Origin: an uncultured Halanaerobiales bacterium
GTDB lineage: Bacteria > Bacillota > Halanaerobiia > Halanaerobiales > M55B127
Assembly (NCBI GenBank): GCA_964430875.1
Contig: CAYSHP010000006.1
Span: 5,699 to 69,698 of the forward strand
Reading direction: 5' to 3'
DNA length: 64,000 bases
The position numbers were made by a program, and so were the translations under genes. How positions within the stretch are numbered: position 1 is the first letter of the stretch; every line of letters begins with the position of its first letter. The notes under the pieces were generated by a model that was not told the DNA's origin, did not search any database, and saw only the letters and a program-made list of their open reading frames with translations. Positions 47,406-62,035 of the stretch are shown piece after piece.

Positions 47406-48344
47406 TTAGCTTTTATATTTTTTTATTTTTTCAAATATTTCTTTAACAGATAAAATTTCATCAACTTTCCATAAACCTTCACCTGTAAAAAATACACCTT
47501 CTTCTAAATCACCTTTTCTACCTTTCAACAAAGCATCTCTAATACAAAATTCTTTAGTACATTTCTTTAAACAGTTGTCACAATTTACCGGTTCAGGGGC
47601 TACACCATTTTTTATTAATTCTGTAAATCTAGTTTTTATTGCATTAGCAGGTAATCCAACCGAACTCATGATTTGAACTATATCCTTCTTTTGAGCTTCT
47701 ACACATAACTTCTTGAAATTATCTGCTATATTAGCTTCTTCACTTGCTAAAAATCTTGTTCCCATCTGCACACCATCAAGCCCTAATTTAAACATATTAT
47801 CTACATCTTCTGGTGTCACAATATCACCGGCTCCAATAACCGGTATACTAATTTTATCTTTTATCCTTTTTATAAGGGGTAAGGCATCTTCATCTGTACC
47901 GAGGTGTCCGCCTGCATCTCCCCCTTCTATAACAATTGCATCTGCACCTAGTTTTTCAGAAATTTTAGCTAATCTAAGTGATGAAACAATTGGTATTATG
48001 GGTATATCATATTTTTTTCCAATCGTAAACATATCTCTTGAAAAACCTGCTCCAGAAATTATTACATCAATACCTGCTTCTACAGAAGCAGTTATTAACT
48101 TTTTGAACTCTTTAGCAGCAAACATTATGTTAACACCTAATATGCCATCTGTCATACTCTTTGCTTTTTTAATTTCGGCTTTTAATTCATCTACCGGTAA
48201 GGCAGTTCCAGCTATAACACCGATACCACCTTCATTAGCTACTGCACTTGCTAGTTTAGCCATAGATATTCTAATGGCCATACCGCCCTGTATAATAGGG
48301 TATTTAGGAACCAAATCTCCTATCTTTAATTTTGGAAATTTCAT
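47406..48344 (-). CDS. Nitronate monooxygenase / FabK-like FMN oxidoreductase
   Basis: PIIQGGMA, GGIGVIAG and GADAIVIEG..AGGH motifs. Confidence 0.8.
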   Translation of the reverse strand: MKFPKLKIGDLVPKYPIIQGGMAIRISMAKLASAVANEGGIGVIAGTALPVDELKAEIKKAKSMTDGILGVNIMFAAKEFKKLITASVEAGIDVIISGAGFSRDMFTIGKKYDIPIIPIVSSLRLAKISEKLGADAIVIEGGDAGGHLGTDEDALPLIKRIKDKISIPVIGAGDIVTPEDVDNMFKLGLDGVQMGTRFLASEEANIADNFKKLCVEAQKKDIVQIMSSVGLPANAIKTRFTELIKNGVAPEPVNCDNCLKKCTKEFCIRDALLKGRKGDLEEGVFFTGEGLWKVDEILSVKEIFEKIKKYKS

Positions 48345-48480
48345 TATTTATTCTCCTTGTTTAAAATAATAATCAAACCTTAATACTGATTAATTATAAC
48401 ATATATATAATTATTATCAATGTTATCAAGTTTTTCTAATTTTTATTAATGCTGATTTTTTGATTAATTATACACCTAAT

Positions 48481-48509
48481 AAAAATTAAACAGCTTTAAA
48501 GCTGTTTAA
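48481..48509 (-). terminator. Terminator after regulator R1 (core CAGCTTTAAAGCTG)
   Basis: 24-nt perfect palindrome TTAAACAGCTTTAAAGCTGTTTAA, 6 nt after the stop. Followed by TTTTT on the minus strand. Confidence 0.75.
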
Positions 48510-48515
48510 TTTAAT

Positions 48516-49661
48516 TTATACATTTTGAAAATTAATTTGTAACTCTTTTTCATCTATTCCAGTCTCTGAACAAATCGAATCACATACTCTTTTTAATACT
48601 TTAGAAGCATTAGATTTAGTTAATTCTAATAACAACATCAAATATTGATCTTTGTCCCATTTTGTTATTATATCTCCCTTTCTTAATTCAGTCTCTAATG
48701 TTTTCTCAATATAATATATGTTATTATTTATAAAATTTTGATTATCAAATTTTATATATGCCAAAAATATTGACTTATTATTTCTTTCTGCTCTTCTTTT
48801 TTCTAATTTATAAATCATTCTAAAGATATCATTAGAACATATAAATGCTCCCCTAATATTATCTCTTTCATTTAATTTATCTTGTATTATATTTAGATAA
48901 TTCTTATCAAAATTTTTATTATATAACTCTTCTAACTTTGGCATATTACTCAAATCTAAATTTTTATTAAATAATTCTTTTGCATATTTATAATGAGATC
49001 TAGCATGTCCAATTTTACCAAGCTCTAATAGAGAAGACATATAAATGGTGTGTATTTCTTCTTCTAATGGTTCAATATTAAAACTTTTTTCACAGACCTC
49101 TATTATTTTTTCATGCCGGTCATATTCTTTTAATAGTTTAATATATTCTATTACATTTTCAATATAATACCAGTGATAATTATTTCTACTGGGTATAACC
49201 CAATCATAGTACGGTATCTCGGGCAAATAATCTCCATTATACATATTAAAGGCTTGTTCATAATATTCAAACGCTTCTATTGGTTTTTCTTTACTGACTA
49301 AATTTGCTTTTTTACATAAGTTGATAAACTCTTCAATATCTAACCAATATTCTGATTCTTTATTAAAAAAACATCTTCCCTGACAGTTTATAATGTATTG
49401 GCAATCTTTTTCTTTTGAATTTAAATTTTTCCTTAACCTATACACAAGATTTGTTACTGTATGTGTAGGGTTTTTTATATTCTGGTCAGGCCAAAGATTA
49501 TTCATAATAATTTCAGGATGTATATTTTTCCCTCTTTCTGTTATTAAGTATTTAAATAATAGCCATGGTTTATCATTTGATCTATTATGCGGAGATAATA
49601 GATTACCATTACATTTAACCTTGAATTCACCTAAAGTATAAATCCTTAAAGGTTCATCCAT
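48516..49661 (-). CDS. Regulator R1: SARP/BTAD-type transcriptional activator with C-terminal degenerate GGDEF-like domain
   Basis: N-terminal OmpR/PhoB-type wHTH (YTLGEFKV..KPWLLFKYL..VTNLVYRLRKNL). BTAD-like helical repeat (WLDIEEF..YNGDYLPE..W...R). C-terminal LRKGDIITKWDKDQYLMLL aligns to RxxD-x5-GGDEF-xxLL. Start set at MDEPL (49661, GGGGTGA SD), matching paralog R2. Confidence 0.7.
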   Translation of the reverse strand: MDEPLRIYTLGEFKVKCNGNLLSPHNRSNDKPWLLFKYLITERGKNIHPEIIMNNLWPDQNIKNPTHTVTNLVYRLRKNLNSKEKDCQYIINCQGRCFFNKESEYWLDIEEFINLCKKANLVSKEKPIEAFEYYEQAFNMYNGDYLPEIPYYDWVIPSRNNYHWYYIENVIEYIKLLKEYDRHEKIIEVCEKSFNIEPLEEEIHTIYMSSLLELGKIGHARSHYKYAKELFNKNLDLSNMPKLEELYNKNFDKNYLNIIQDKLNERDNIRGAFICSNDIFRMIYKLEKRRAERNNKSIFLAYIKFDNQNFINNNIYYIEKTLETELRKGDIITKWDKDQYLMLLLELTKSNASKVLKRVCDSICSETGIDEKELQINFQNV

Positions 49662-49926
49662 AAAATCACCCCTTTCAGTGGTTTTTGGGGTAACTGTATA
49701 TGGTATAGAAATGAGAGTTAATAAATTAATAAAAGCTATAGTAAATACAATGAAAAAACATTGCAAGAAAAATTTATCATTATCTTTACCATAGCTTAAA
49801 TTTAAATATATATATTTTTAATTCTCTTTTATAAGTTAACTTTAATTATATCACGAAATTTTTATTTAATCAATATAAATATACTAAATTTTGTTAATTA
49901 TACATTCGATATAAGATTAACTTGTG

Positions 49927-49942
49927 ATAATCATATGATTAT
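49927..49942. promoter_or_regulatory. 16-bp perfect palindrome ATAATCATATGATTAT, preceded by CTTGTGAT
   Basis: Read directly in the R1/A1 divergent intergenic region. Function unknown. Confidence 0.3.
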
Positions 49943-50025
49943 TTTTACTATTAATATATTAAGAACTTCTATATATACAATCTAATTACTTTTATGGAAA
50001 ATATTTATTAAAAAAATTAATTTAT

Positions 50026-50040
50026 TTGTGATTATCACAA
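50026..50040. promoter_or_regulatory. Palindrome TTGTGAT-T-ATCACAA, candidate operator about 180 bp upstream of gene A1
   Basis: 15-bp palindrome. The 9-mer TTTGTGATT recurs at the equivalent distance upstream of gene B1 (54555). Confidence 0.35.
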
Positions 50041-50206
50041 GACATAGAAATGATACCTAAGTGCTATTATTAAAACAAGCAGGGAATTTATAAAAATATA
50101 AAAAAAGGAGGGGGTTGAAAAATAAGTTTTATGCCGGTGATTATTGGGCGGACCGAATTAAGTAGTTTGGTATCTTAAAATAAAAAAACATAAGGAGTGT
50201 TAAATA

Positions 50207-50839
50207 ATGAAAAAATTAGGTATTGGTATATTTGTTTTGATGTTTATTGTATTGGTAGCTATGCCAGTTTTAGCTCTTAATGAGTTAGTTGATATTGATG
50301 ATTCTACTTTATGCTATCCTGATTTCTGGACATGGGTAGACGACCGTGATGATAATAGTGTTGACAAAGACTTATTTGATGATAAAGATATGGTTGATTT
50401 TGATGTAAAATTCTGTGGTTTAGGTCAAGGTTTAGGTGGCCAAAGTGTAAATGGTGTAATGTTTATGGAAAAAAATTATGAAAGATCCGATGTAATTAAT
50501 GGTGGTTCATATGCAAATGCTCATGGCATAGTAACCACTCAAATGTCATCTGGTAATTCAAATTTACAATCTGCTGCTATTTATGCAGATGTTAAATACT
50601 TGGGTGATATTGACCTAGTACCAGTAGGACAAAGTGTTAATGGAGTATTATTCCTAGAAAAAGGTTATATGAGATATGATATGATAGGTGGCGGCGCATT
50701 CGCTAATGCTGTTGGTATTATAACAACTCAACTATCCTCAGGTAATGCAAATCTACAACAAGCTATTGTTGATATAGAAGTAAATCCATCTGTTTTCTGT
50801 CATCCAGCTCCAGCTCCAATTTGCCCATGTAGCAAATAG
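50207..50839 (+). CDS. A1: secreted two-repeat N/Q/G-rich protein (candidate fibre subunit)
   Basis: Signal peptide ..AMPVLA|LNE. Acidic Asp-rich linker. Two 52-aa repeats with 63-aa period (GQSVNGV.F.EK.Y.R.D.I.GG.[YF]ANA.GI.TTQ.SSGN.NLQ). Cys-rich tail CHPAPAPICPCSK. AAGGAG SD. Confidence 0.8.
   Translation: MKKLGIGIFVLMFIVLVAMPVLALNELVDIDDSTLCYPDFWTWVDDRDDNSVDKDLFDDKDMVDFDVKFCGLGQGLGGQSVNGVMFMEKNYERSDVINGGSYANAHGIVTTQMSSGNSNLQSAAIYADVKYLGDIDLVPVGQSVNGVLFLEKGYMRYDMIGGGAFANAVGIITTQLSSGNANLQQAIVDIEVNPSVFCHPAPAPICPCSK
50438..50782 (+). repeat. Tandem coding repeat in A1 (2 x about 156 nt, period 189 nt)
   Basis: Residues 78-129 and 141-192 align with more than 60% identity. Confidence 0.85.
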
Positions 50840-50852
50840 TTTGATATAAAAT

Positions 50853-50885
50853 GCAGGGTATTTGATATACCCTGCTCTAGTTTCC
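50853..50885 (+). terminator. Intra-operon hairpin/attenuator after A1
   Basis: GCAGGGTAT-TTGAT-ATACCCTGC located 14 nt after the stop. Weak T tract. The counterpart after B1 has the same GCAGGGT/ACCCTGC core. Confidence 0.55.
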
Positions 50886-50927
50886 TTGTTAAGTATAGTA
50901 GAATAATTCTTATAAGGAGGAAAATTT

Positions 50928-51626
50928 ATGAAAGTTGATAAAATAATATTTATAAACATCTTAATAATATTATTGGTTTTCAGTATAAGTGGATTTACCT
51001 TTGCTGACAACGTTAGCTTTAGGATTTTTTCCTCCGGTATGAGAATTAATACTACTGTTGAAAGTATCGCTGAATTAAGGTTTAAAAATGTCGTCAAACA
51101 AAAATATGATATAAGCTGTGGATCAGCCGCCTTAGCTACTATATTTCAATTTAATTATAACGATGAGGTAAGTGAACAAGAAATCATCGATATGATTTTG
51201 GGAATTAAAAATATTAGTAGTCTAAAAAATGAATCTGGTTTTAATCTGCTAGATTTAAAAATGGCTGCAGAGTTTTTTGGATACACAGCTCATGGTTTAA
51301 AAGGTAGTCTTGCAGCTATTAGTAAAATTAATTTGCCAATGATTGTTCTCTTAGAAGCACCTCAGGGTCCTCATTTTGTAGTAGTTAGAAAAATCAATGA
51401 AGACTCTGTACAAGTGGCTGACCCTGCTTTGGGTAATCAGTCCATTAAAATTGATAAGTTTGAAAAACAATGGAATAATATATTATTGGCAATTGAAAGC
51501 CGAAATAAAGTCTTAAATGATAATCTTGAAGTTTATGAAATACCTCTTATAACAGGAGGAAAAGATATTATGAGGACTTTAAATGATAGTTGGACAAGAA
51601 TACCTTTTAACCATATAGAATTTTAG
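50928..51626 (+). CDS. A2: periplasmic C39-family cysteine peptidase
   Basis: Signal peptide ..FTFA|DNV. Q58-x5-C64 (KQKYDISCGSAALATIFQ), and H149 (GPHFVVV) with D165 exactly 16 residues later (VADPALG). These are the C39 catalytic set and spacing. AGGAGG SD. Confidence 0.85.
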   Translation: MKVDKIIFINILIILLVFSISGFTFADNVSFRIFSSGMRINTTVESIAELRFKNVVKQKYDISCGSAALATIFQFNYNDEVSEQEIIDMILGIKNISSLKNESGFNLLDLKMAAEFFGYTAHGLKGSLAAISKINLPMIVLLEAPQGPHFVVVRKINEDSVQVADPALGNQSIKIDKFEKQWNNILLAIESRNKVLNDNLEVYEIPLITGGKDIMRTLNDSWTRIPFNHIEF

Positions 51627-51673
51627 ACTAGGATATATTATAATAATCTCTTTAAAAGTTAAGGAGGGGGATA

Positions 51674-52051
51674 ATGAAAAACACATTTAAAATCAGTGGT
51701 TTGTTGTTTATGATTCTTATGTTAATACTCTTATCACCTTCTATAACAGCTGCTGATTTCCCCGCAGAATTTGAAAAGGTTTCTGATTCTGAATTGGCTG
51801 CTATAGAAGGAATGGGAAATATATTTGAAATTGTCGAAATTGCAGAAAACGGTTATGAGTTTAGCTATAGTGGAAATAGAGACAATGCTTTCCAAAATGC
51901 CTCAGGTATTATTAGTGTCAGCAATGTTTCTGGTAATGGTAATACAGTTCAAAATATCATAGACCTAAAAGTATGGATTATGAATATTAATGGAAACATA
52001 AATATTGATATTGATGATCTTGGACAATATCTTCAAGAAATGAATTTATAA
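51674..52051 (+). CDS. A3: small secreted one-repeat protein with double-glycine-type leader motif after the signal peptide
   Basis: Signal peptide ..SITA|ADFP. VSDSELAAIEGMG resembles LSxxELxxIxGG. One copy of the NAFxNAxGI..V.N.SGN.N..QN repeat. GGAGGGGG SD. Confidence 0.8.
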   Translation: MKNTFKISGLLFMILMLILLSPSITAADFPAEFEKVSDSELAAIEGMGNIFEIVEIAENGYEFSYSGNRDNAFQNASGIISVSNVSGNGNTVQNIIDLKVWIMNINGNINIDIDDLGQYLQEMNL

Positions 52052-52067
52052 ATAAAGAATGTTTTCA

Positions 52068-52101
52068 ACCCTCCATTTTTAAGGATGGAGGGTCCTTTTT
52101 T
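52068..52101 (+). terminator. Intra-operon terminator/attenuator between A3 and A4
   Basis: ACCCTCCAT-(8 nt)-ATGGAGGGT followed by CCTTTTTTAC. A similar CCTCCAT/ATGGRGG hairpin sits between B3 and B4. Confidence 0.7.
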
Positions 52102-52171
52102 ACTATAATTAAAAAGGATTAATAATATTAATAGCGAATTATAATTTATAAAATTGAGAGGAGTATAACTT

Positions 52172-53059
52172 ATGAAAAAAATATTAGTCTTTTTATTTAC
52201 TTTGCTTCTTTTTTTAATTTTTATTAATTTTAGTATAGGAGAAATAGTACAGGCCAAAAGTCCCTTTGAAATAGATGTCAGTTTATCTTATTTACATAGT
52301 TCAAATAATAGATTAGCGGTATCAGGTTATAGTGTAATTGAAGTATTAAATGTAGGAAAATTTGAAGTTAGAAAAATAAATAGAGATATACTATCAACAA
52401 ATATAAGATTAAGACACACCACACCTGAAACTAGTGTCGAATTGATAATACCTTATACCTTTAGAAGAGATGAAATTATTAAGTATGCAGATGTGGATTC
52501 TGACACAAATGAACCGACTAGAGAAGTATTAAGCGGGAATGGTTTGGGTGATATACTTTTAAATATACAAACAGATATCAAATATGGTGATGTACATCTG
52601 CAAAATACTCAAGTAAATCTAGGATTGAAAACTTCTACGGGTAAATGGTATGATCCTAAATCAGGTATGTCATTTACATCTGGTCATTATGGATTCAAAT
52701 TGGGTATATCACATATGATACCTATTGATCCCATAGTACTATTTGGAAGTACTAATTATTTTTGGAATATAAAACAATATAATGTAGATCCTGGAGATTC
52801 AATACAATATTCAATGGGGGTAGCCTATGCATTAACACAAAATTTCTCTGTTAATGCCCGCTTTGAGCATACTTTAACAGGAAGTACAGTAAATAATGGA
52901 AGAACAGTTATAGAATCAAGTTCTAATTCTGCAACTTTATATATGGGAGGAAGTTATGTTTCACAAAAAGGTGTTCCCTTTGATGTAATAATAGGTACTG
53001 GTTTAACTGAAGATGCTGCCGATTTCTCTTTTCAACTTAGTAGACCATTTTATTTCTAA
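52172..53059 (+). CDS. A4: small outer-membrane beta-barrel protein (candidate export pore)
   Basis: Signal peptide ..IVQA|KSP. Alternating amphipathic strands throughout. C-terminal beta-signal ..FQLSRPFYF ends in Phe. Size and pattern recall the 'MetA-pathway/transporter' OM barrel family (unverified). Confidence 0.75.
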   Translation: MKKILVFLFTLLLFLIFINFSIGEIVQAKSPFEIDVSLSYLHSSNNRLAVSGYSVIEVLNVGKFEVRKINRDILSTNIRLRHTTPETSVELIIPYTFRRDEIIKYADVDSDTNEPTREVLSGNGLGDILLNIQTDIKYGDVHLQNTQVNLGLKTSTGKWYDPKSGMSFTSGHYGFKLGISHMIPIDPIVLFGSTNYFWNIKQYNVDPGDSIQYSMGVAYALTQNFSVNARFEHTLTGSTVNNGRTVIESSSNSATLYMGGSYVSQKGVPFDVIIGTGLTEDAADFSFQLSRPFYF

Positions 53060-53093
53060 CTTTGTATAGATTGATAATTAAATATCTTTAGAT

Positions 53094-53121
53094 AAAAAGC
53101 AGCTTTAAAGCTGCTTTTTTT
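53094..53121. terminator. Bidirectional terminator shared by A4 (+) and regulator R2 (-)
   Basis: 18-nt palindrome AGCAGCTTTAAAGCTGCT flanked by an A-run and a T-run. Same CAGCTTTAAAGCTG core as the hairpin at 48486-48509. Confidence 0.8.
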
Positions 53122-54277
53122 ATATGCTATCAAAATTATATCTAATATCTTCCTTATTTATTTTAAGTTCTTCTTTAATCTCTTCTTTCAATCTTTTTAT
53201 AACTTTATTTACATCTGCTCTAGACATATCCTTAAGTAACATTAAATACTTATCAAAATCCCACCGAGTAATAACATCTCCTTTTCTTAATTCTTTTTCA
53301 ATAATATTTTCTACAATATAATCATTTTGTTTTAAAATATTTTCATTTTCAAATTTTAAATAACTAATAAAAACCGGTTTATCTCTCCTTTCATTCCGTC
53401 TCTCTTCTAATTCGTAAATCATTCTAAATATATCATTTTTACAACTAAAGGCCCCTTTGATATTATTTCTATTTTTTAGTTCTCCTTGAATATCATTAAT
53501 AAAATTATTATTTTTCTTATTATTTTCCGTAAAAATATTATTAAGTTTAGGTGATTTACTTATATCTAAATTTTCACTGAAAAGATTATTGGCATAATTA
53601 TAATGTGATCTAGCATGTGCATGCTCTCCTAACTTAATTAAAGCATCTAAATAATTACTATGAAGTTCTTCTTCATAAGATTCTATATTTAAAGCTTTTT
53701 CAGCTATTGACTCTATTTCTCTATATCTTTCATATTTTTTCAATAAATTAATGAATTCTAGAACTTTTTCAACAAATAACCAGTGGTAATTATTTCGATA
53801 AGGTATAACCCACTCTTGATAAGGTATTTCTGGTAAATAATCTCCTTGATATAAGTTTAAGGCCTCTTTATATAAAGGTATCGCTTGGGCTGGATTATTC
53901 TTTTTTAACTTAGTTGCTTTTTTACTCATTGCAATAAATTCTTCGATATCTAACCAATAGTTTGCATCCTGATTAAAAAAGCAGTTCCCATTAGAGTTGA
54001 TTATATATTGATCACTTTCTTCATTATTAAATAAATTTAGTTGTTTTCTTAATCTGTATACTAAATTTGTAATAGCATGTTTGGGTTTTTTAATATTCTT
54101 TTTAGGCCAAAGATCATTACTAATAACTTCAGAATGTAAGTTTTTTTCTTTTCCAGTAATTAAATATTTGAAAAATAACCACGGTTTTGAATTAAATTTT
54201 TCTTTGGGAGATAATATTTTGCCCTTATATTCAACTTTAAACTTACCTAAGGTATAAATTTCTAATATGTTATCCAT
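53120..54277 (-). CDS. Regulator R2: SARP/BTAD-type activator with degenerate GGDEF-like C-terminus (paralog of R1)
   Basis: YTLGKFKV..KPWLFFKYL..ITNLVYRLRKQL, then WLDIEEF..YQGDYLPE. C-terminal LRKGDVITRWDFDKYLMLL. GGTGGGG SD. Confidence 0.7.
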   Translation of the reverse strand: MDNILEIYTLGKFKVEYKGKILSPKEKFNSKPWLFFKYLITGKEKNLHSEVISNDLWPKKNIKKPKHAITNLVYRLRKQLNLFNNEESDQYIINSNGNCFFNQDANYWLDIEEFIAMSKKATKLKKNNPAQAIPLYKEALNLYQGDYLPEIPYQEWVIPYRNNYHWLFVEKVLEFINLLKKYERYREIESIAEKALNIESYEEELHSNYLDALIKLGEHAHARSHYNYANNLFSENLDISKSPKLNNIFTENNKKNNNFINDIQGELKNRNNIKGAFSCKNDIFRMIYELEERRNERRDKPVFISYLKFENENILKQNDYIVENIIEKELRKGDVITRWDFDKYLMLLKDMSRADVNKVIKRLKEEIKEELKINKEDIRYNFDSI

Positions 54278-54554
54278 AATACCCCACCAATTTATCTTTT
54301 TGGATAACTAATGTCTAGAATAATAATTACTTTTTAAAAATAAATAATATAAATTTCTTGTGAATACCTATCTTCATTTCTTTTAAATTAATTTTAACAA
54401 ACCTTAGTAATTTTATCAAGTTTTATTATCATATGTTATCTTATAAATCTAATAATGATTTTTTCATGAGTATTTTATGATTAAATAAATAATTTATCCC
54501 ACTATAAGTATATTAAAACTTATAATTACCATATTTTAAATTCATCTGTTAAAT

Positions 54555-54573
54555 TTTGTGATTTTCATGTGAG
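54555..54573. promoter_or_regulatory. TTTGTGATT-containing element (TGTGA-N6-TGTGA) about 190 bp upstream of B1
   Basis: Shares the 9-mer TTTGTGATT with the locus-A palindrome, at a similar distance from the start codon. Confidence 0.3.
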
Positions 54574-54659
54574 TTTGTTGTAATTATTTTCTGATAAGTG
54601 GTTGTTATGATATAAGCAAGCTGAATTGAAAACAAAATAATTAACTCGAAAGGTAGAAA

Positions 54660-54722
54660 CAAAAATATTTAATTACTTCCTTTTGGAATTATTGAGTTTT
54701 CAATTCAAAAATATTTAATTAC
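54660..54722 (+). repeat. 17-bp perfect direct repeat CAAAAATATTTAATTAC (x2, 46 bp apart) in the B1 leader
   Basis: Copies at 54660-54676 and 54706-54722. A 12-bp inverted repeat TGAATTGAAAAC / GTTTTCAATTCA (54622-54633 / 54696-54707) brackets the first copy. Confidence 0.5.
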
Positions 54723-54744
54723 AAAAACTTAGGAGGGTTTTAAA

Positions 54745-55257
54745 ATGAGAAAATTGTTAGGTATTGGCACTGCATTGATGGTTCTGATGGTATTAGTCGC
54801 TGTTCCAGCTGTAGCCCAGGAGGCATTTAATAATGAAGAAATGCCCGGCTATTATTATGGGGAAGATGTAATCTTTGATGATGCTGAGACTGAAGAAATT
54901 TATATCGGAGAAGAAATCTATTACAGAGATGATCTTATTACCAATAATGCCTTCCGAGATGCACTAGGTATAACAACCGTTCAACAAGCTGCTGGTAATG
55001 CTAGTGTTTTAGAAAGTAATGTTACTATTGAAGGCTTAGAAGAAGCAGATGAATTTGAATTAAGCGCTCAGGAAGTTGAAGTAGAAGAAGTACTAATTAT
55101 GGAAAGAGACTATACCAGAGTTGATACAATATCTGGTAACGCTTTCCGTAATGCAACTGGTATTACTACTGTTCAACAAGCTGCTGGTAATGCAAATGTC
55201 GTTCAATCTAATGTAGAGGTAAATATTGGAGCAGCCTTTGCAGCTCCCGAACTATAA
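54745..55257 (+). CDS. B1: secreted two-repeat N/Q/G-rich protein (paralogous role to A1)
   Basis: Signal peptide ..VPAVA|QEA. Highly acidic. Two repeats (..D.I..NAFR[DN]A.GITTVQQAAGNA.V..SNV) with 64-aa period. AGGAGGG SD. Confidence 0.8.
   Translation: MRKLLGIGTALMVLMVLVAVPAVAQEAFNNEEMPGYYYGEDVIFDDAETEEIYIGEEIYYRDDLITNNAFRDALGITTVQQAAGNASVLESNVTIEGLEEADEFELSAQEVEVEEVLIMERDYTRVDTISGNAFRNATGITTVQQAAGNANVVQSNVEVNIGAAFAAPEL
54916..55221 (+). repeat. Tandem coding repeat in B1
   Basis: Residues about 58-95 and 117-159. The core NAFR.A.GITTVQQAAGNA is identical in both copies. Confidence 0.85.
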
Positions 55258-55270
55258 CAAGAACAAATAA

Positions 55271-55300
55271 AGCAGGGTGTAATCACCCTGCTTTTCTATT
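55271..55300 (+). terminator. Intra-operon terminator/attenuator after B1
   Basis: AGCAGGGTG-TAAT-CACCCTGCT followed by TTTTCTATTTAT. Confidence 0.7.
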
Positions 55301-55327
55301 TATCAATGTAAAAGGGGAGAATTTAAA

Positions 55328-56023
55328 ATGAAAAACAAAAAACCTTTAATTATTATTATCATTTTATTTTTAATATTCAGTACAGTTGGTTTAGTCAAAG
55401 CAGGAAATGTAAAATTTCAGGTGTTCTCCTCTGGCCCTACAATAACTAGAAATATAAAAAGTAAAACTGAAATTAAATTTCATAAAATAGTTAAACAGAA
55501 ATATGATGTAAGTTGTGGCTCAGCTTCATTAGCAACCATATTTCAATATTACTATAATGATGAAATTTCAGAACAAGAAATAATAAATATAATAAAAAAC
55601 ATTAAAAATATTGACACTTTAAAAAATAGTGCTGGTTTTACTTTATTAGATTTAAAGATGGCTGCTGAGTTTTTAGGTTATAAAGCTTATGGTCTAAAAG
55701 GAGATATTAAAGCCATAAGAAAATTAGATCTACCAATAATTGTGCTTCTTAATTCCCCTAAAGGACCTCACTTTGTAGTTATTAAAGAAGTTAAAACCAA
55801 TTCTGTAAAAATAGCGGATCCAGCTCTTGGAAATTTAAATCTTAGTATTGAAAAATTTAAATCACAATGGAATAAAACATTACTAGCAATAGAAAGTAAA
55901 AATAGTATTGGAAATAATAATTTCAGCAGTTTTGAAAAGCCTAATTTACCACAAGAAAATCATATATTTAATTTAATTGAAAATAATTGGACTAGATTAC
56001 CAAAAGATCATAAAGAATTTTAA
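55328..56023 (+). CDS. B2: periplasmic C39-family cysteine peptidase (paralog of A2)
   Basis: Signal peptide ..LVKA|GNV. Q57-x5-C63 (KQKYDVSCGSASLATIFQ). GPHFVVI with Asp 16 residues after His (IADPALG). Confidence 0.85.
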   Translation: MKNKKPLIIIIILFLIFSTVGLVKAGNVKFQVFSSGPTITRNIKSKTEIKFHKIVKQKYDVSCGSASLATIFQYYYNDEISEQEIINIIKNIKNIDTLKNSAGFTLLDLKMAAEFLGYKAYGLKGDIKAIRKLDLPIIVLLNSPKGPHFVVIKEVKTNSVKIADPALGNLNLSIEKFKSQWNKTLLAIESKNSIGNNNFSSFEKPNLPQENHIFNLIENNWTRLPKDHKEF

Positions 56024-56069
56024 TTTATCTGGTTTTTAAATTGTAAAAATGAAAGGTAGGAGGGAGATC

Positions 56070-56441
56070 ATGCATAAAAAATTAATTGTTAAATTGATTA
56101 TGTCGGTATTAATGGTCTCAATTATTATAACTCCTATTTCAGCTGCCGAAATTCCCGAAGGGTTAAATAGTTTAAATGAAAAGGAATTATCAGGTATTAG
56201 AGGTATGGGGCAAAATTTTAGTATAGAACAAATAAATTCATCAAATGTAAAATTTAGATACAGTAGTAATAAAGATAACGCCTTTAAACATGCCTCAGGA
56301 GTTATGAATATAACAAATGTTTCCGGAAATGAAAATACAATAAATAATGTAGTAGACCTAAAGATTAATATCTATAATATTGAAGAAGTTGAAAATCTTG
56401 AACTATCTGATATTAAAAATATGGTCAATCTTAAAAATTAA
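56070..56441 (+). CDS. B3: small secreted one-repeat protein with double-glycine-type leader motif (paralog of A3)
   Basis: Start set at MHKKL (GGAGGGAG SD). Signal peptide ..PISA|AEIP. LNEKELSGIRGMG motif. Repeat DNAFKHASGVMNITNVSGNENTINN. Confidence 0.78.
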   Translation: MHKKLIVKLIMSVLMVSIIITPISAAEIPEGLNSLNEKELSGIRGMGQNFSIEQINSSNVKFRYSSNKDNAFKHASGVMNITNVSGNENTINNVVDLKINIYNIEEVENLELSDIKNMVNLKN

Positions 56442-56455
56442 TGGTTAATAAAAGA

Positions 56456-56486
56456 ATATCCTCCATTAATATGGGGGATATTTTTA
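56456..56486 (+). terminator. Intra-operon terminator/attenuator between B3 and B4
   Basis: ATATCCTCCAT-TAAT-ATGGGGGATAT (one G.U/mismatch) followed by TTTTTAC. Confidence 0.7.
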
Positions 56487-56521
56487 CTTAGTATTTAATA
56501 AATGATCTGGGGGTAAACAAA

Positions 56522-57391
56522 ATGAAAAAGCATATAATAATTTTTTCTTTATTAATAATGTTTTTATTCTCAAGCTTTATTTTGCAAACAAACTTTAGTC
56601 AAGCAAAAAGTCCCTTTGAAATAGAAATAGGTACTTCTTATTCGCATAGTTCTAATAACAGATTAAATGTGAGTGGATATAGTGTAGTTGAAGTGGTAAA
56701 TATAGGAAAGCTGGAAGTTAGAAAAATCAGAAGGGATATTTTGACTTCCAATTTAAAATTAAGATATAAAAATCAAAGATCAAGTTTTGAAATAGTAATA
56801 CCTTATAAAGTACAAAGAAAAAGTGTAATAAAATATGCGGACACTACTGAAAATGGAGAACCCACTGAAAAAATAAAAACTTCTCATGGTTTAGGCGATG
56901 TTATGATCAATTTAAATACAAATATTAAAAGCAAAAATACTAAATTTAATATAGGAGTTAAAACAACTACCGGGCAGGAATATGGTAATGAAACCGATAT
57001 GAATTTTGGTTCTAATTATTATGGTTTAAAATTAGGCATAAGTCATATAAAACAATTAGATCCTGTAGTCTTTTTTGGCAGTGTAAATTACTTTTGGAAT
57101 ATAGAAAAAGATAATTATAATCCAGGTGATACATTACAATATTCTTTAGGCTTAGCATATGCTTTAAGTCAAAACTTATCTTTAAACACTAGAATCGAAC
57201 AGTCTATAACTTCTAGTTCATATCAAAATAATGACAAAATAATTGGTACCAGTATAAATGCATCCTCCTTATATTTAGGAACTAATTATACAAATCAAAG
57301 TGGCTCTTCCTTTAATTTTCTTATTGGTCTTGGTCTATCTGAAGATTCTGTTGATTATTCTCTACAAATAAATAAGCCATATTATTTTTAA
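56522..57391 (+). CDS. B4: small outer-membrane beta-barrel protein (paralog of A4)
   Basis: Signal peptide ..FSQA|KSP. Same N-terminal KSPFEI.. block as A4. C-terminus ..LQINKPYYF. Confidence 0.75.
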   Translation: MKKHIIIFSLLIMFLFSSFILQTNFSQAKSPFEIEIGTSYSHSSNNRLNVSGYSVVEVVNIGKLEVRKIRRDILTSNLKLRYKNQRSSFEIVIPYKVQRKSVIKYADTTENGEPTEKIKTSHGLGDVMINLNTNIKSKNTKFNIGVKTTTGQEYGNETDMNFGSNYYGLKLGISHIKQLDPVVFFGSVNYFWNIEKDNYNPGDTLQYSLGLAYALSQNLSLNTRIEQSITSSSYQNNDKIIGTSINASSLYLGTNYTNQSGSSFNFLIGLGLSEDSVDYSLQINKPYYF

Positions 57392-57410
57392 CAAATAATA
57401 TGGCTAAAGA

Positions 57411-59195
57411 TCAATTTCTGTTTTTCATTTCATACATGAAGTAATCAGCTTCTTTAAAGACCTCTTCAAGTTCTGTTTTGTGATCCTTTTTTACTCCGAA
57501 ACCAGTAGATATACTAATCGGAAACTCATATTTTTCATCTAATTTATTAACATTGGTTTGTATCCTTTGTTCTATTTTTTTAACTTCATCTTCGTCTGTT
57601 TGAGGGAGTAAAATTGCAAATTCATCTCCTCCCACCCGAGCAAGTATATCTTCTTGTCTTACTGCATTGTCTATCTCACTAGCAACTAGATTAATATATT
57701 TATCGCCTCTGGCATGACCAAATTTATCATTTACTTTTTTCAAACCATCAATATCAGACATAATAATACTAATTGGTAGTAACCTTGAATTATCTAACCT
57801 TTCCATTTCACTTTCGAAATATCTTCTATTATATAATCCAGTCATTTGATCATGAAAAGATAAGTATTTAATCTCTTCTTCTTCTTTTTTTCTTTGGGTA
57901 ATATCATTATAAATTGCATATAAGCCAATTTGACCTTCTTTTAAACTAATTGGGAAAGCATGTATTGTAACATCTACTGTTTTACCTTCTTTTGTTTTGC
58001 GAACCGATTCTTTTTCAATGTCCTGATTATTTAAGACTTTTTTAGTATAATTTTGTCCTTCTTCTTTTTTAGTTTCAGGCACTATTAGATCATCTATGTT
58101 TTTATCTTTTGCTTCTGATTGTGAATAACCAAATAAATTCTCAAAACTTTTATTTATCTTAAGGATTTGATTTTCATTATCTAAAAGAGCAATTGCCTCA
58201 GTTGACTCATCGAATAATTGTTGAAAGAATGCTTTTTGTCTTCTTAACTTTCTTTCAGTTTCTTTTCTTTCAGTTATGTCATTATATATGGCATATATCC
58301 CTATTTGGCCTTTACCTAATTTTATGGGAAAAGAATGCATGGAAACAAAAATTCTTTTACCCTCTTTTGTCTTTCTAATTGTTTCTAACTTCACTTCTTT
58401 GCCTGCAATATTTTTTTTGGTATTATTAATGCCTTCTTCTATTTTTTCTTCGGGAGTTATCAGATCATCTATGTTCTTCCCTTTAATCTCTTTTGCCTGA
58501 TAACCAAATACTTTTTCAAAACTTTTATTTACTTTAATAATCTTGCTTTTATTATCTAAGAGAGCAATTGCTTCGGTTGACTCATTAAACAATTGTTGGA
58601 AATATGCTTGATGTTCTTTTAATCTTTTTTCAACATCTTTTCTATAAAAGGCTTCTGTGATATTCAAAAGATAATTTAATACTTTTTTATCTTCTTTACT
58701 AAAATTAACATCTCTATTTTCATCAATATCTAAAGTTATGCCACCTACTGCTTGCTCTTTAAAGTATAAATCAAAAGTAATGGAATCTTTAATTGGTTTT
58801 GATGCCTCTTCTAATTTTGAATAAGTATTATTATCGGTTGAGTCTTTTGTAATATCTATTACTTCACTAATAATAGAGACTTGATTTTTGCGGTCAGACA
58901 GCTGAAATACACTCTCATCTATTGCAATCTGTTTAAGCACAGCAAGATTATGTCCAACAGTATCTAAAAATTTTACTTTACCATCTACATATTTATAAAC
59001 ACTACCATAATCAGCCTTTTTGATTAAATTCATAGCTGTCTTTAAGAGTTTTGACCAAAATATTTTTTCATCTTCAATACTTATTTCATTGAGTTTATTA
59101 GAAAAATTGATAATTCTTTCAAAACTCTTGTTTAATTCATTAACTCTCTTATTTAGCTGTTTAATTTTCTCTTTTAATTCAGCAATTTCATGCAT
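57411..59195 (-). CDS. Diguanylate cyclase: coiled-coil/GAF-like N-terminus, tandem PAS, GGDEF with I-site
   Basis: Two roughly 113-aa PAS units (QQLF[ND]ESTEAIALLDN..). LTGLYNRRYF, DIDGLKKVNDKFGH, and RQED-x5-GGDEF (active A-site plus RxxD I-site). Confidence 0.9.
   Translation of the reverse strand: MHEIAELKEKIKQLNKRVNELNKSFERIINFSNKLNEISIEDEKIFWSKLLKTAMNLIKKADYGSVYKYVDGKVKFLDTVGHNLAVLKQIAIDESVFQLSDRKNQVSIISEVIDITKDSTDNNTYSKLEEASKPIKDSITFDLYFKEQAVGGITLDIDENRDVNFSKEDKKVLNYLLNITEAFYRKDVEKRLKEHQAYFQQLFNESTEAIALLDNKSKIIKVNKSFEKVFGYQAKEIKGKNIDDLITPEEKIEEGINNTKKNIAGKEVKLETIRKTKEGKRIFVSMHSFPIKLGKGQIGIYAIYNDITERKETERKLRRQKAFFQQLFDESTEAIALLDNENQILKINKSFENLFGYSQSEAKDKNIDDLIVPETKKEEGQNYTKKVLNNQDIEKESVRKTKEGKTVDVTIHAFPISLKEGQIGLYAIYNDITQRKKEEEEIKYLSFHDQMTGLYNRRYFESEMERLDNSRLLPISIIMSDIDGLKKVNDKFGHARGDKYINLVASEIDNAVRQEDILARVGGDEFAILLPQTDEDEVKKIEQRIQTNVNKLDEKYEFPISISTGFGVKKDHKTELEEVFKEADYFMYEMKNRN
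57888..58601 (-). repeat. Tandem PAS-domain duplication inside the cyclase gene (period 125 aa)
   Basis: Residues 199-311 and 324-436 are about 60% identical. Confidence 0.8.
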
Positions 59196-61770: not shown

Positions 61771-62035
61771 CTAATCACTCCCCCTTAGATATTAAAGTAA
61801 AATGGGTATATTATTTCACTTACATCTTATATATTATTTATTCTTTTACACTTCTATTATTCCTTTAAAAATATATGATAAGAAAATAATTTGCAATATT
61901 TGTTTGTCCAAAAGGTAATTCTATTGTATAATAAAAAATATAAAGAATCTTTATTAATCTACTAACCATTGAATAAGTTATTAATCAAGCAATTATATAT
62001 AATAAAATAATCCCTGATGAAAGGTGATTAATAAT

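What the first reader, a model, noticed from the sequence alone, without database searches (positions are those of the whole stretch)
48481..57391. Two diverged tandem copies of a 'regulator + secreted repeat protein + periplasmic C39 peptidase + small leader-bearing repeat protein + OM beta-barrel' module: candidate novel Fap/curli-like fibre or peptide-export system
**Seen in the sequence.** The same five-gene layout occurs twice back to back, as R1-A1-A2-A3-A4 (48516-53059) and R2-B1-B2-B3-B4 (53120-57391).
- All four structural proteins in each copy have Sec signal peptides.
- Genes 1 and 3 share an N/Q/G-rich repeat.
- Gene 2 has a complete C39 catalytic set.
- Gene 4 has the hallmarks of a small OM barrel (amphipathic strands, terminal Phe).
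- The copies are clearly paralogous but well diverged, so both appear to have been retained over a long period.

**Established knowledge.** The Pseudomonas fapABCDEF functional-amyloid operon combines repeat amyloid subunits (FapB/C) with a C39-like peptidase (FapD) and an OM pore (FapF). Curli subunits use Q-x-G-x-G-N-x-A-x3-Q repeats.

**Inference.** This is an analogous envelope-spanning fibre or peptide secretion pathway in a diderm Firmicute. No ABC/T1SS partner and no CsgG/E/F-type components are present. I cannot match the gene set to a named system from memory.
Basis: partly seen in the sequence, partly recalled or inferred. Interest (0 to 1): 0.9.

Follow-up and report, generated by a model that had tools for sequence, protein, structure and literature searches.

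The report
Duplicated minimal Fap amyloid-export operon
Two back-to-back, long-diverged copies of a stripped-down relative of the Pseudomonas Fap functional-amyloid secretion system lie in an uncultured Halanaerobiales bacterium; the machine is a known kind, but this minimal form could help show what the Fap protease cuts.

Summary
In detail: two paralogous five-gene modules (regulator plus four Sec-exported proteins) lie in tandem at 48516-57391.

The modules are homologous to Fap, not merely analogous, and they keep the fapB/C-fapD-fapE-fapF gene order.
- **Gene 1** is a FapB/C-type subunit (Pfam FapBC) with two repeats instead of three.
- **Gene 2** is a periplasmic FapD-type C39 peptidase with Cys, His and Asp intact.
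- **Gene 3** is a miniature FapE: a Sec signal, a double-glycine-type propeptide (ELxxIxGMG) and one Fap repeat.
- **Gene 4** is a FapF barrel (E 8.5e-55 to PDB 5o67; TM 0.76). It lacks the coiled coil and plug helix that Pseudomonas FapF needs for secretion.
- **The regulator** is a SARP-type activator fused to a degenerate GGDEF domain that keeps the RxxD I-site. It sits next to heptamer repeats at 11-nt spacing.

The duplication is old. It is syntenic in two related assemblies. The close family occurs only in Halanaerobiales MAGs.

The FapE-type leader recurs in Nitrospirales-type clusters and in Aeromonas FapE. This points to FapE as the unresolved FapD substrate.

Verdict: a new variant of a known system, of moderate interest. 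Amyloid formation, cleavage and c-di-GMP control are inferred, not shown.

The parts
48516..49661 (-). R1: SARP-type activator (OmpR-type winged helix + BTAD) with a C-terminal degenerate GGDEF domain that keeps the RxxD I-site
   Evidence: Pfam Trans_reg_C 3.5e-8 and BTAD 2.5e-14, with a partial GGDEF match. The family profile hits AfsR 8hvr (E 5e-7) and diguanylate cyclase 4urg (E 2.6e-5). The R and D of RKGD are invariant in 7 of 7 homologues.
49923..50070 (+). Candidate regulator sites and promoter of module A. Heptamers at 11-nt period: TGTGATA 49923 and TATGATT 49934; TGTGATT 50027, CAAGACA 50038 and AATGATA 50049. Extended -10 TGcTATTAT at 50062-50070.
   Evidence: Read from the sequence. 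The pattern hits only the two R/gene-1 intergenic regions in the whole window. The layout equals the classical 11-bp SARP site (PMC10972967). This is an inference; binding was not tested.
50207..50839 (+). A1: FapB/C-type amyloid subunit, with a Sec signal, an acidic N-region, two imperfect repeats and a Cys-rich tail
   Evidence: Two roughly 63-aa repeats. 28% identical to B1. Close relatives P0105 and P0112 carry Pfam FapBC. Cys count.
50853..50875 (+). Terminator-like hairpin directly after gene 1 (core GCAGGGT..ACCCTGC)
   Evidence: Same position and same core after B1 and after both gene-1 orthologues in L001.
50928..51626 (+). A2: periplasmic FapD-type C39 cysteine peptidase (Cys64, His149, Asp165)
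   Evidence: Pfam Peptidase_C39 2.3e-24. The best NCBIfam hit is C39_FapD, 7.2e-38. Alignment to PCAT1.
51674..52051 (+). A3: miniature FapE-like protein, made of a Sec signal, a double-glycine-type propeptide (VSDSELAAIEGMG, residues 36-48, nt 51779-51817) and one Fap repeat
   Evidence: It sits at the FapE position of the operon. G-M-G is invariant in 10 of 10 orthologues. It aligns with short FapE-like proteins and with Aeromonas FapE. The repeat is shared with gene 1.
52068..52093 (+). Terminator-like hairpin directly after gene 3
52172..53059 (+). A4: FapF-type outer-membrane beta-barrel without coiled coil or plug helix
   Evidence: NCBIfam FapF 4.7e-15 over profile positions 122-420. 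Pfam Phenol_MetA_deg. The family profile hits FapF 5o67 at 8.5e-55.
53120..54277 (-). R2: paralogue of R1 (53% identity)
54557..54611 (+). Candidate regulator sites and promoter of module B. Heptamers TGTGATT 54557, TGTGAGT 54568, TGTAATT 54579 and TCTGATA 54590, then extended -10 TGtTATGAT at 54603-54611.
   Evidence: The first two heptamers and the -10 are conserved in 5 orthologous loci; the third and fourth vary.
54622..54707 (+). Long conserved hairpin in the 5' UTR of B1
   Evidence: The 12-bp outer stem is conserved in 5 loci, with one U-A to U-G change. There is little covariation.
54745..55257 (+). B1: FapB/C-type amyloid subunit, with a Sec signal, an acidic N-region, two imperfect repeats and no Cys
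   Evidence: Identical to P0092 (HKL12162.1, Halanaerobiales bacterium), which has a precomputed Pfam PF27129 FapBC hit. NCBIfam FapB 1.1e-5.
55269..55294 (+). Terminator-like hairpin directly after gene 1
55328..56023 (+). B2: periplasmic FapD-type C39 peptidase (Cys63)
   Evidence: Pfam 4.4e-26. NCBIfam FapD 2.3e-34.
56049..56441 (+). B3: miniature FapE-like protein; propeptide LNEKELSGIRGMG (residues 42-54, nt 56172-56210)
56452..56485 (+). Terminator-like hairpin directly after gene 3
56522..57391 (+). B4: FapF-type outer-membrane barrel without coiled coil or plug helix
   Evidence: NCBIfam FapF 1.8e-20. AF2 model pLDDT 83.8. The best Foldseek hits are FapF 5o65/5o67/5o68 (E 3e-17, TM 0.76), then COG4313 4rl8.
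57411..59195 (-). PAS-PAS-GGDEF diguanylate cyclase, convergent neighbour, syntenic in relatives (context; a possible c-di-GMP source)
   Evidence: Pfam GGDEF 5e-39 with two PAS domains. Same neighbour in L001, L002 and L005.

Best explanation
Each module is a compact Fap-type functional-amyloid (fibre) secretion and assembly operon, read as fap(B/C)-fapD-fapE-fapF.

**Shown**
- Homology of genes 1, 2 and 4 to FapB/C, FapD and FapF.
- Gene 3 sits at the FapE position and has FapE's architecture.
- Signal peptides on all four proteins.
- An intact C39 triad.
- A conserved double-glycine-type leader in gene 3.
- An old, syntenic duplication.

**Inferred mechanism**
1. All four proteins cross the inner membrane through Sec.
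2. The gene-4 barrel inserts in the outer membrane of this diderm Firmicute.
3. The periplasmic C39 peptidase removes the propeptide of the mini-FapE, at or next to the invariant G-M-G.
4. That cleavage licenses export through the barrel, which here has no plug helix and no periplasmic coiled coil.
5. The two-repeat gene-1 subunit is exported unfolded and polymerises outside the cell into a cross-beta fibre. The one-repeat mini-FapE acts as a minor, anchoring or nucleating subunit.
6. Hairpins after genes 1 and 3 raise the ratio of subunit transcript to machinery transcript.
7. Each module is switched on by its own divergent SARP-type activator. The activator binds 11-nt-spaced TGTGAnT heptamers over the -35 region. 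It probably senses c-di-GMP through the RxxD site of its dead GGDEF domain.
8. The two modules probably make two different fibres: a Cys-rich A1 type and a Cys-free B1 type.
For: **Gene 4**
- The family profile hits FapF crystal structures only, at E 8.5e-55.
- The AF2 model (pLDDT 83.8) matches FapF best, at TM 0.76, ahead of COG4313.

**Gene 2**
- FapD is the top NCBIfam hit, at 7e-38 and 2e-34.
- The catalytic residues are aligned.

**Gene 1**
- B1 is identical to a database protein that carries Pfam FapBC, and 32 of 33 homologues carry it.
- NCBIfam FapB matches 7 of 8 orthologues.

**Gene 3**
- It has the same operon position as FapE in every related cluster.
- It shares the architecture and leader motif with short FapE-like proteins and with Aeromonas FapE. 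The Aeromonas protein matches NCBIfam FapE at 2e-12.
- G-M-G is invariant in 10 of 10 orthologues.

**Literature**
- FapD's catalytic Cys is required for secretion, and FapE is the only Fap protein whose N-terminus is lost (PMC5557850).

**Regulation**
- The regulator has a SARP domain plus a degenerate GGDEF domain with invariant RxxD.
- Heptamer repeats occur only in the two divergent intergenic regions.
- GGDEF and HD-GYP-type genes lie next to the locus here and in L015.

**Duplication**
- Trees place the duplication before the divergence of the sampled Halanaerobiales.

**Cell envelope**
- Halanaerobiales have an LPS outer membrane (PMC5007114).
Against: - There is no experimental evidence for amyloid formation, secretion, cleavage or c-di-GMP binding.
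- Gene 3 reaches the FapE model only faintly (E 0.02). It reaches distant FapE-like proteins only through the repeat (hhalign probability 58%). Its assignment rests on position, architecture and motif.
- The residue before the last Gly is Met (Gln or Ala in relatives, Arg in Aeromonas). Known C39 sites have Gly, Ala or Ser at -1.
- Gene 1 has two repeats. Three repeats are reported as almost universal in Fap (PMC12392863, PMC12822426).
- There is no second FapB/C gene and no FapA.
- The coiled coil and plug are reported as critical for secretion in Pseudomonas (PMC5557850) and are absent here, so gating must differ.
- The B1 monomer model has low confidence (pLDDT 52.7).
- All NCBIfam scores lie below the equivalog cut-offs. 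The canonical Aeromonas operon also falls below them.
Confidence: 0.8

Rival explanations
1. The locus is a leader-peptide processing and export pathway for a small secreted peptide or protein, of the bacteriocin, signal or adhesin kind. The C39 peptidase matures gene 3 (and perhaps gene 1), and the barrel simply releases soluble products. No fibre is made.
For: - Gene 3 has a good double-glycine-type leader.
- C39 domains classically mature bacteriocins. The next NCBIfam hits after FapD and FilB are peptide-cleaving ABC exporters.
- The amyloid state is untested, and the B1 model has low confidence.
Against: - No ABC transporter or T1SS partner is present, and the peptidase itself carries a Sec signal.
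- The cargo proteins carry FapBC repeats.
- The barrel is specifically FapF-like.
- The gene order equals the fap order.
Confidence: 0.08
2. The modules belong to the poorly characterised Fil-type 'putative pilus' systems of Acinetobacter (FilB C39 peptidase plus FilC barrel) rather than to Fap, and they build a non-amyloid pilus.
For: NCBIfam FilB (2e-27 and 9e-30) and FilC (1e-5 and 5e-8) are the second-best hits for genes 2 and 4.
Against: - FapD and FapF score better for every protein.
- The canonical Aeromonas FapD and FapF hit FilB and FilC at similar levels, so these hits only reflect family relatedness.
- Genes 1 and 3 carry Fap repeats.
- No paper on FilB/FilC was found in the library.
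Confidence: 0.05
3. Gene 4 is a COG4313/Phenol_MetA_deg-type uptake channel for hydrophobic substrates, and the neighbouring genes are functionally unrelated or accessory to uptake.
For: - A4 passes the Pfam Phenol_MetA_deg threshold (27.4 bits against 22).
- COG4313 channel 4rl8 is the second structural match.
- FapF is thought to derive from such channels (PMC6173800).
Against: - The sequence profile hits only FapF in the PDB, at 8.5e-55.
- The barrel is always linked to C39, FapBC and FapE-like genes in relatives from several lineages.
- PMC6173800 states that C39 peptidases have not been reported in COG4313 operons.
Confidence: 0.03

Closest known systems
Pseudomonas Fap functional-amyloid system (fapABCDEF; FapF structures 5o65/5o67/5o68)
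   Same: - Same component families in the same order: FapB/C-type repeat subunit, periplasmic C39 peptidase FapD, FapE-type minor subunit with a processed N-terminus and a C-terminal Fap-like repeat, and a FapF 12-stranded barrel.
- All components are Sec-exported.
- The E111/R157-equivalent residues and the C-terminal PYYF are kept.
   Different: - One subunit gene per module instead of FapB plus FapC.
- Two repeats instead of three.
- No FapA.
- FapE is shrunk to about 125 aa (215 aa in the Aeromonas FapE read here; 247 positions in the NCBIfam FapE model).
- FapF lacks the coiled coil and the plug helix A89-G101, which are critical in Pseudomonas (PMC5557850).
- Two tandem, diverged operons, whereas only 3 genomes with two clusters were reported (PMC12392863).
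- Host is a diderm Firmicute.
- The regulator is a SARP/dead-GGDEF protein. A sigma-54-type activator gene lies next to the Aeromonas fap operon (L020) and next to the fap-like clusters L010 and L016.
Uncharacterised short Fap-like clusters in Nitrospirales, Methylomirabilis-type and other metagenomic contigs (L009, L010, L014, L019)
   Same: - Same order: FapBC, C39, small FapE-like protein, FapF-like barrel.
- The small protein has a Sec signal plus a double-glycine leader and one C-terminal repeat.
   Different: - The leader is canonical ...ELxxIRGG.
- There are one to three FapBC genes with more repeats.
- The barrels are longer (304-461 aa in L009, L010, L014 and L019), and those read have N-terminal extensions that include a plug-like segment.
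- GC content is high.
- Neighbouring regulator genes differ (sigma-54 activator in L010, GerE-type in L014).
Curli (csgBAC/csgDEFG, type VIII secretion)
   Same: Functionally analogous: extracellular nucleation-precipitation of a repeat-containing amyloid subunit exported unfolded through a dedicated outer-membrane channel.
   Different: No sequence relationship was found. There were no Curlin_rpt, CsgG, CsgE or CsgF hits. The channel fold differs, and curli has no C39 peptidase.
Peptidase-containing ABC transporters (PCAT1, ComA, bacteriocin exporters)
   Same: The C39 fold and catalytic triad. The substrates carry an amphipathic leader that ends in a Gly-containing site.
   Different: In those systems the peptidase is cytoplasmic and fused to an ABC exporter. 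Here it is a free-standing periplasmic enzyme with its own Sec signal, and the leader follows a Sec signal peptide.
SARP-family activators (AfsR, ActII-ORF4, DnrI, EmbR)
   Same: An OmpR-type winged helix plus BTAD. The candidate sites are heptamer direct repeats in 11-bp units that overlap the -35 region, as described for SARPs (PMC10972967).
   Different: The C-terminal sensor is a catalytically dead GGDEF domain that retains the RxxD I-site. The target is a fibre operon in a Firmicute, not an antibiotic cluster in an actinomycete.

Membership tests
Fap functional-amyloid system | Subunit with FapB/C imperfect repeats (Pfam PF27129 FapBC) | tested here: met
   - B1 is identical to P0092, which has a precomputed PF27129 hit, and 32 of 33 homologues carry it.
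- NCBIfam FapB is weak but present in 7 of 8 orthologues.
- PF27129 is not in the local Pfam copy (no hit).
Fap functional-amyloid system | Two subunit genes (FapB nucleator plus FapC major), each with three repeats | tested here: not met
   There is one FapBC gene per module with two repeats. Three repeats are reported as almost universal (PMC12392863, PMC12822426).
Fap functional-amyloid system | Periplasmic C39 peptidase FapD with catalytic Cys and His | tested here: met
   - FapD is the best NCBIfam hit, at 7e-38 and 2e-34, although below the equivalog cut-off of 330 bits.
- Aeromonas FapD is also below that cut-off, at 249 bits.
- The triad is aligned.
- A Sec signal is present.
Fap functional-amyloid system | FapE: minor subunit encoded between fapD and fapF, with a processed N-terminus and a C-terminal Fap-like repeat | tested here: inconclusive
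   - Position, signal, leader motif and single repeat all agree.
- The FapE HMM reaches gene 3 only at E 0.02.
- hhalign to short FapE-like proteins gives probability 58%.
Fap functional-amyloid system | FapF 12-stranded outer-membrane barrel | tested here: met
   E 8.5e-55 to 5o67. Foldseek TM 0.76 to 5o65, at E 3e-17.
Fap functional-amyloid system | FapF N-terminal trimeric coiled coil and helical plug | tested here: not met
   - The mature protein starts at the first barrel strand.
- The alignment to the K83-F406 construct begins at chain residue 31. By my offset estimate (a 334-residue chain against the 324 residues K83-F406) that is about residue 103, just after plug helix A89-G101 (PMC5557850).
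Fap functional-amyloid system | Gene order fap(B)C-D-E-F | tested here: met
   The order was compared with the Aeromonas fapBCDEF operon.
Fap functional-amyloid system | FapA chaperone | tested here: not met
   There is no extra ORF in the module. Absence of FapA is the commonest natural variant (PMC6173800), so this carries little weight.
Fap functional-amyloid system | The product forms extracellular amyloid fibrils | not testable with these tools
   The AF2 monomer model of B1 has low confidence (pLDDT 52.7). It shows two sets of four predicted strands.
Curli (type VIII secretion) | CsgA/B curlin repeats and CsgG/E/F export components | tested here: not met
   No Curlin_rpt or Csg family hit at E <= 0.1 for any of the ten proteins.
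PCAT / bacteriocin type I export | C39 domain fused to, or partnered with, an ABC transporter | tested here: not met
   Gene 2 is 231-232 aa and consists of a Sec signal plus a C39 domain only. There is no ABC gene in the locus.
Acinetobacter Fil putative pilus system | FilB and FilC as the best-matching models | tested here: not met
   FilB and FilC are second to FapD and FapF and far below their cut-offs. The canonical Aeromonas Fap proteins give the same secondary hits.
SARP transcriptional activators | OmpR-type winged helix plus BTAD; heptamer direct repeats in 11-bp units at the target promoter | tested here: met
   - Domains.
- Repeats were seen in the sequence and are conserved.
- Binding itself was not tested.
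c-di-GMP receptors with degenerate GGDEF domains (I-site type) | GGDEF fold with RxxD five residues upstream of a degenerate GG(D/E)EF | tested here: met
   RKGD-VITRW-DFDKY is in register with RRSD-VVGRY-DGDEF of 3ezu. The R and D are invariant in 7 of 7 homologues. Ligand binding is not testable here.

The most novel reading that the evidence does not exclude
The Halanaerobiales modules represent the irreducible core of the Fap pathway: one subunit, one peptidase, one propeptide-bearing mini-FapE and a bare barrel.
- The only processing step would be C39 removal of a double-glycine-type propeptide from FapE.
- That cleavage, rather than a plug or coiled-coil gate, would license secretion.
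- The same leader in Nitrospirales-type clusters and in Aeromonas FapE would then identify FapE as the general, so far unproven, FapD substrate.
- In addition, the regulators would be a new class of c-di-GMP-sensing SARP activators.
Probability: 0.3. Interest if true: 0.7.

Novelty: new variant of a known kind. Interest (0 to 1): 0.5.

Why it matters
**For the Fap field**
- The substrate of FapD and the way FapF is gated are still open (PMC6173800, PMC5557850).
- This natural minimal version carries a clear, conserved leader on its FapE-like protein.
- It lacks the FapF domains thought to be essential.
- It therefore gives a small, four-gene system for testing both questions directly.

**For diderm Firmicutes**
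- It adds an outer-membrane fibre-export pathway. I found no description of one in the searched literature.
- Whether the pathway was inherited or acquired is not known.

**For regulation**
- It suggests a SARP activator coupled to a c-di-GMP I-site.

**Practical relevance**
- From general knowledge, not tested here: Halanaerobiales thrive in hypersaline industrial settings, where biofilms matter.

Tried and rejected
**Searches that gave nothing useful**
- An Rfam scan of 48300-57600 found only sub-threshold chance hits, so there is no riboswitch, c-di-GMP class included.
- A PDB profile search with gene 1 gave no FapC or other meaningful hit.
- The AF2 model of B1 had too low a confidence to search with.
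- The genome scan with the 19-sequence alignment failed for lack of a conserved stretch and was repeated with 12 sequences.
- Literature searches for FilB/FilC, for Fap in Halanaerobium, for FapF in diderm Firmicutes and for FapD/FapE leader cleavage found nothing specific.
- The supplements of the two 2025 surveys and of the 2018 review do not name Halanaerobiales in the text held.

**Things I could not establish**
- I could not fetch a Pseudomonas FapE. An Aeromonas caviae fap operon, found through the plasmid collection, was used as the canonical reference instead.
- The organisms behind L015, L016 and L017 could not be named.

**Readings considered and rejected**
- Curli-like system.
- ABC/T1SS bacteriocin export.
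- COG4313 uptake channel.
- A recent or degenerate duplication. All ten ORFs are intact, and the A and B clades pre-date species divergence.

Full report
**1. Observation**

The region holds ten intact ORFs in the reported layout. Two minus-strand regulators, R1 (48516-49661) and R2 (53120-54277), are each followed, after 545 and 467 nt of intergenic DNA, by four plus-strand genes: A1-A4 (50207-53059) and B1-B4 (54745-57391).

Pairwise identities between the copies are 53% (R), 28% (gene 1), 54% (gene 2), 40% (gene 3) and 49% (gene 4). Genes 1 and 3 share a repeat (hhalign probability 92%). All eight structural proteins begin with a typical Sec signal, read from the translations.

**2. Component identities**

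*Gene 4.*
- The best NCBIfam hit is FapF, covering only the barrel part of the model (positions 122-420 of 420).
- A profile of the family hits nothing in the PDB except the FapF crystal structures, at E 8.5e-55.
- An AF2 model of B4 (pLDDT 83.8) superposes best on FapF (TM 0.76, E 3e-17). The COG4313 channel comes second.

*Gene 2.*
- It carries a Peptidase_C39 domain, and FapD is the top NCBIfam hit.
- Aligned to PCAT1, Gln58, Cys64, His149 and Asp165 are in place.

*Gene 1.*
- B1 is 100% identical to NCBI protein HKL12162.1 from a 'Halanaerobiales bacterium' MAG.
- That protein, and 32 of 33 homologues, have a precomputed hit to Pfam PF27129 FapBC.
- This family is missing from the local Pfam copy, which explains the empty result.

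*Gene 3.*
- It has no significant family hit (FapE E 0.02).
- It lies where fapE lies, between the peptidase and the barrel, in every related cluster I fetched:
  - Nitrospirales-type and other high-GC contigs (L009, L010, L014, L019);
  - three further minimal modules (L015, L016, L017);
  - the canonical fapBCDEF operon of Aeromonas caviae (L020).
- The gene set is therefore fap(B/C)-fapD-fapE-fapF.

**3. The gene-3 leader**

Behind the Sec signal, all ten Halanaerobiales gene-3 proteins carry [LVI]-x-[DE]-x-[ET]-L-x-x-[IV]-x-G-M-G, with G-M-G invariant. The hydrophobic and acidic positions match the classical double-glycine leader (-12, -8, -7, -4, -2; from general knowledge of C39 substrates).

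The motif recurs outside this group:
- The three other minimal modules have ELSEVSGQG, ELSGIAGMG and ELDSVVGAG.
- Essentially all of the 59 short FapE-like proteins from Nitrospirales, Methylomirabilis-type and similar sources have a canonical ...SDxELxxIRGG.
- Aeromonas FapE, confirmed by the NCBIfam FapE model at 2e-12, has LADGELAHLRGR at the same place.

In the joint alignment, E40, L41, G46 and G48 (A3 numbering) are invariant or nearly so, although overall identity is about 20-38%.

The literature says that the FapD substrate is undetermined, that FapD's catalytic Cys is required for secretion, and that FapE is the only Fap protein whose N-terminus disappears (PMC5557850, PMC6173800). 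It also says that Fap proteins lack canonical C39 sites. The conserved leader described here is therefore a concrete candidate site. Cleavage itself is inferred.

**4. What is missing or different**

- The mature gene-4 protein starts at the first barrel strand.
  - Its alignment to the K83-F406 crystal construct begins just after the plug helix A89-G101.
  - There is no coiled coil.
  - Both elements are reported as critical for FapC secretion in Pseudomonas (PMC5557850).
- Gene 1 has two repeats, not the 'almost universal' three. There is one subunit gene per module and no FapA (PMC12392863, PMC12822426).
- The A1 type carries 4-6 Cys and a Cys/His-rich tail. The B1 type has none.
- The AF2 model of B1 has low confidence (52.7) and shows two sets of four strands. 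It neither supports nor refutes a defined monomer fold.

**5. Regulation (inferred)**

*The regulators.*
- R1 and R2 have an OmpR-type winged helix plus BTAD.
- As a profile they hit the SARP AfsR (E 5e-7) and diguanylate cyclases (E 2.6e-5).
- The C-terminal domain is a GGDEF fold whose active site reads DFDKY or DKDQY.
- The RxxD I-site sits five residues upstream. It is in register with solved cyclases and invariant in 7 of 7 homologues, including one at 21% identity.

*Candidate binding sites.*
- Upstream of B1 lie TGTGATT, TGTGAGT, TGTAATT and TCTGATA at exact 11-nt spacing (54557-54596).
- They end 9 nt before an extended -10, TGtTATGAT.
- A similar arrangement precedes A1 (50027-50070).
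- In the B-type loci the first two heptamers and the -10 are conserved; the third and fourth vary.
- The motif pair occurs nowhere else in the 64-kb window.
- This is the classical SARP site layout (PMC10972967).

*Neighbours.* A PAS-PAS-GGDEF cyclase (57411-59195) and an HD-GYP-type protein (62024-63430) flank the locus here and in relatives. L015 also has GGDEF and HD_5 neighbours.

*Transcript structure.*
- Terminator-like hairpins follow gene 1 and gene 3 in both modules and in L001. This is consistent with higher expression of the fibre subunits.
- No known riboswitch was found.

**6. Distribution and age**

- In the set of 185,579 species-representative genomes, the close family of gene 4 is found in five loci, all from uncultured Halanaerobiales MAGs.
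- In the protein collection there are about 13 clusters at 49% identity or more.
- L001/L002 carry the same tandem pair between the same neighbours. L005, whose contig starts inside module 1, holds genes 2-4 of module 1 and the whole of module 2, with the same downstream neighbours.
- Neighbour-joining trees of the regulator and of gene 2 put L001 module 1 with window module A. The gene-4 tree leaves L001 module 1 unresolved between the A and B clades. In all three trees the single-module L015 branches outside the tandem pair.
- The duplication therefore pre-dates the divergence of these species.
- Similar four-gene modules with 51-52% GC (L016, L017) show that the minimal form is not confined to low-GC genomes. 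Their hosts could not be named.
- Halanaerobiales possess an LPS outer membrane (PMC5007114), so an outer-membrane barrel makes sense.

**7. Comparison with what is known, and novelty**

- Fap was first thought to be restricted to Proteobacteria (PMC3792158).
- Later surveys noted FapD/FapF pairs in five additional phyla (PMC6173800). They also noted amyloid operons in Desulfobacterota, Nitrospirota 'and even Bacillota' (PMC12822426).
- Pfam's FapBC model already recognises these subunits. The presence of a Fap relative here is therefore not categorically new.
- I found no description in the library searched of:
  - the minimal architecture;
  - the plug-less barrel;
  - the conserved FapE leader across phyla;
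  - the tandem duplicated operons, each with its own SARP/dead-GGDEF regulator.
- I rate it a new variant of a known kind, with interest about 0.5.

**8. Limits**

- Everything beyond homology, synteny and motif conservation is inference.
- No Pseudomonas FapE sequence was available, so Aeromonas served as the canonical reference.
- Signal peptides were judged by eye.
- Multimer modelling was not available.

Noticed in passing
window 50853-50875, 55269-55294 (after gene 1); 52068-52093, 56452-56485 (after gene 3); L001 4267-4294, 8708-8741, 5472-5500: GC-rich terminator-like hairpins sit directly after both fibre-subunit genes in both modules and in the orthologous locus. The hairpins after gene 1 share the core GCAGGGT..ACCCTGC. 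They are probably attenuators or mRNA stabilisers that set subunit-to-machinery stoichiometry.
   Followed up: partly
window 54622-54707: A long hairpin lies in the 5' UTR of B1. Its 12-bp outer stem is conserved in five loci, with one U-A to U-G change. There is little covariation and no Rfam match. Its function is unknown.
   Followed up: partly
window 49923-49940, 50027-50055, 54557-54596: TGTGAnT-like heptamers occur in exact 11-nt register, ending 9 nt upstream of extended -10 elements. The pattern occurs only in the two regulator/gene-1 intergenic regions of the 64-kb window.
   Followed up: partly
window 50207-50839 (A1) and relatives P0105-P0112: A1-type subunits carry 4-6 cysteines and Cys/His-rich C-terminal tails (FCHPAPAPICPCSK; KPHHHHGGGCK in relatives). 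B1-type subunits have no Cys. This may mean metal binding or cross-linking, which is unusual for a strict anaerobe's extracellular fibre.
   Followed up: no
window 57411-59195 and 62024-63430: A PAS-PAS-GGDEF diguanylate cyclase and an HD-GYP-type (HD_5) protein flank the locus in conserved synteny. A more distant module (L015) also has GGDEF and HD_5 neighbours.
   Followed up: partly
L015 1679-2179 (-) and gene-1 repeats in the window: The first half of the Fap repeat (ISGNAFqNAtGI) has the same hydrophobic spacing as the FapE leader (LSxxELxxIxGM). In L015, one repeat of an extra FapBC gene even reads VSDTALEDVTGG. This hints that FapD may also bind the repeats, or that the leader and the repeat share an origin.
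   Followed up: no
L013 (Paraburkholderia sp. contig SCRP01000033.1) 7001-13155: This is another variant. A FapF-like barrel is divergent from a C39 peptidase, two proteins with GG-type leaders (LTPQQLDNMRGG, MTTDQLDEHRGG) and two 410-aa Gly-rich proteins without a FapBC hit.
   Followed up: no
window 50928-51626, 55328-56023 and orthologues: All gene-2 peptidases of the minimal modules end in a conserved ...EF C-terminus after a roughly 35-residue tail beyond the C39 domain. This may be a docking motif.
   Followed up: no
window 50100-50164: A strong Shine-Dalgarno-like AAAGGAGGGGG is followed by a possible 16-codon ORF (TTG start at 50114) in the A1 leader region. A similar GGAGGGG element is present in L001 and L015.
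   Followed up: no
L020 (NZ_AP026896.1, 'plasmid pKAM479_3', 4.94 Mb): This PLSDB 'plasmid' record of Aeromonas caviae is chromosome-sized. It carries a canonical fapBCDEF operon next to a sigma-54 activator and an IS element. Only 18 features are annotated in the whole record.
   Followed up: no
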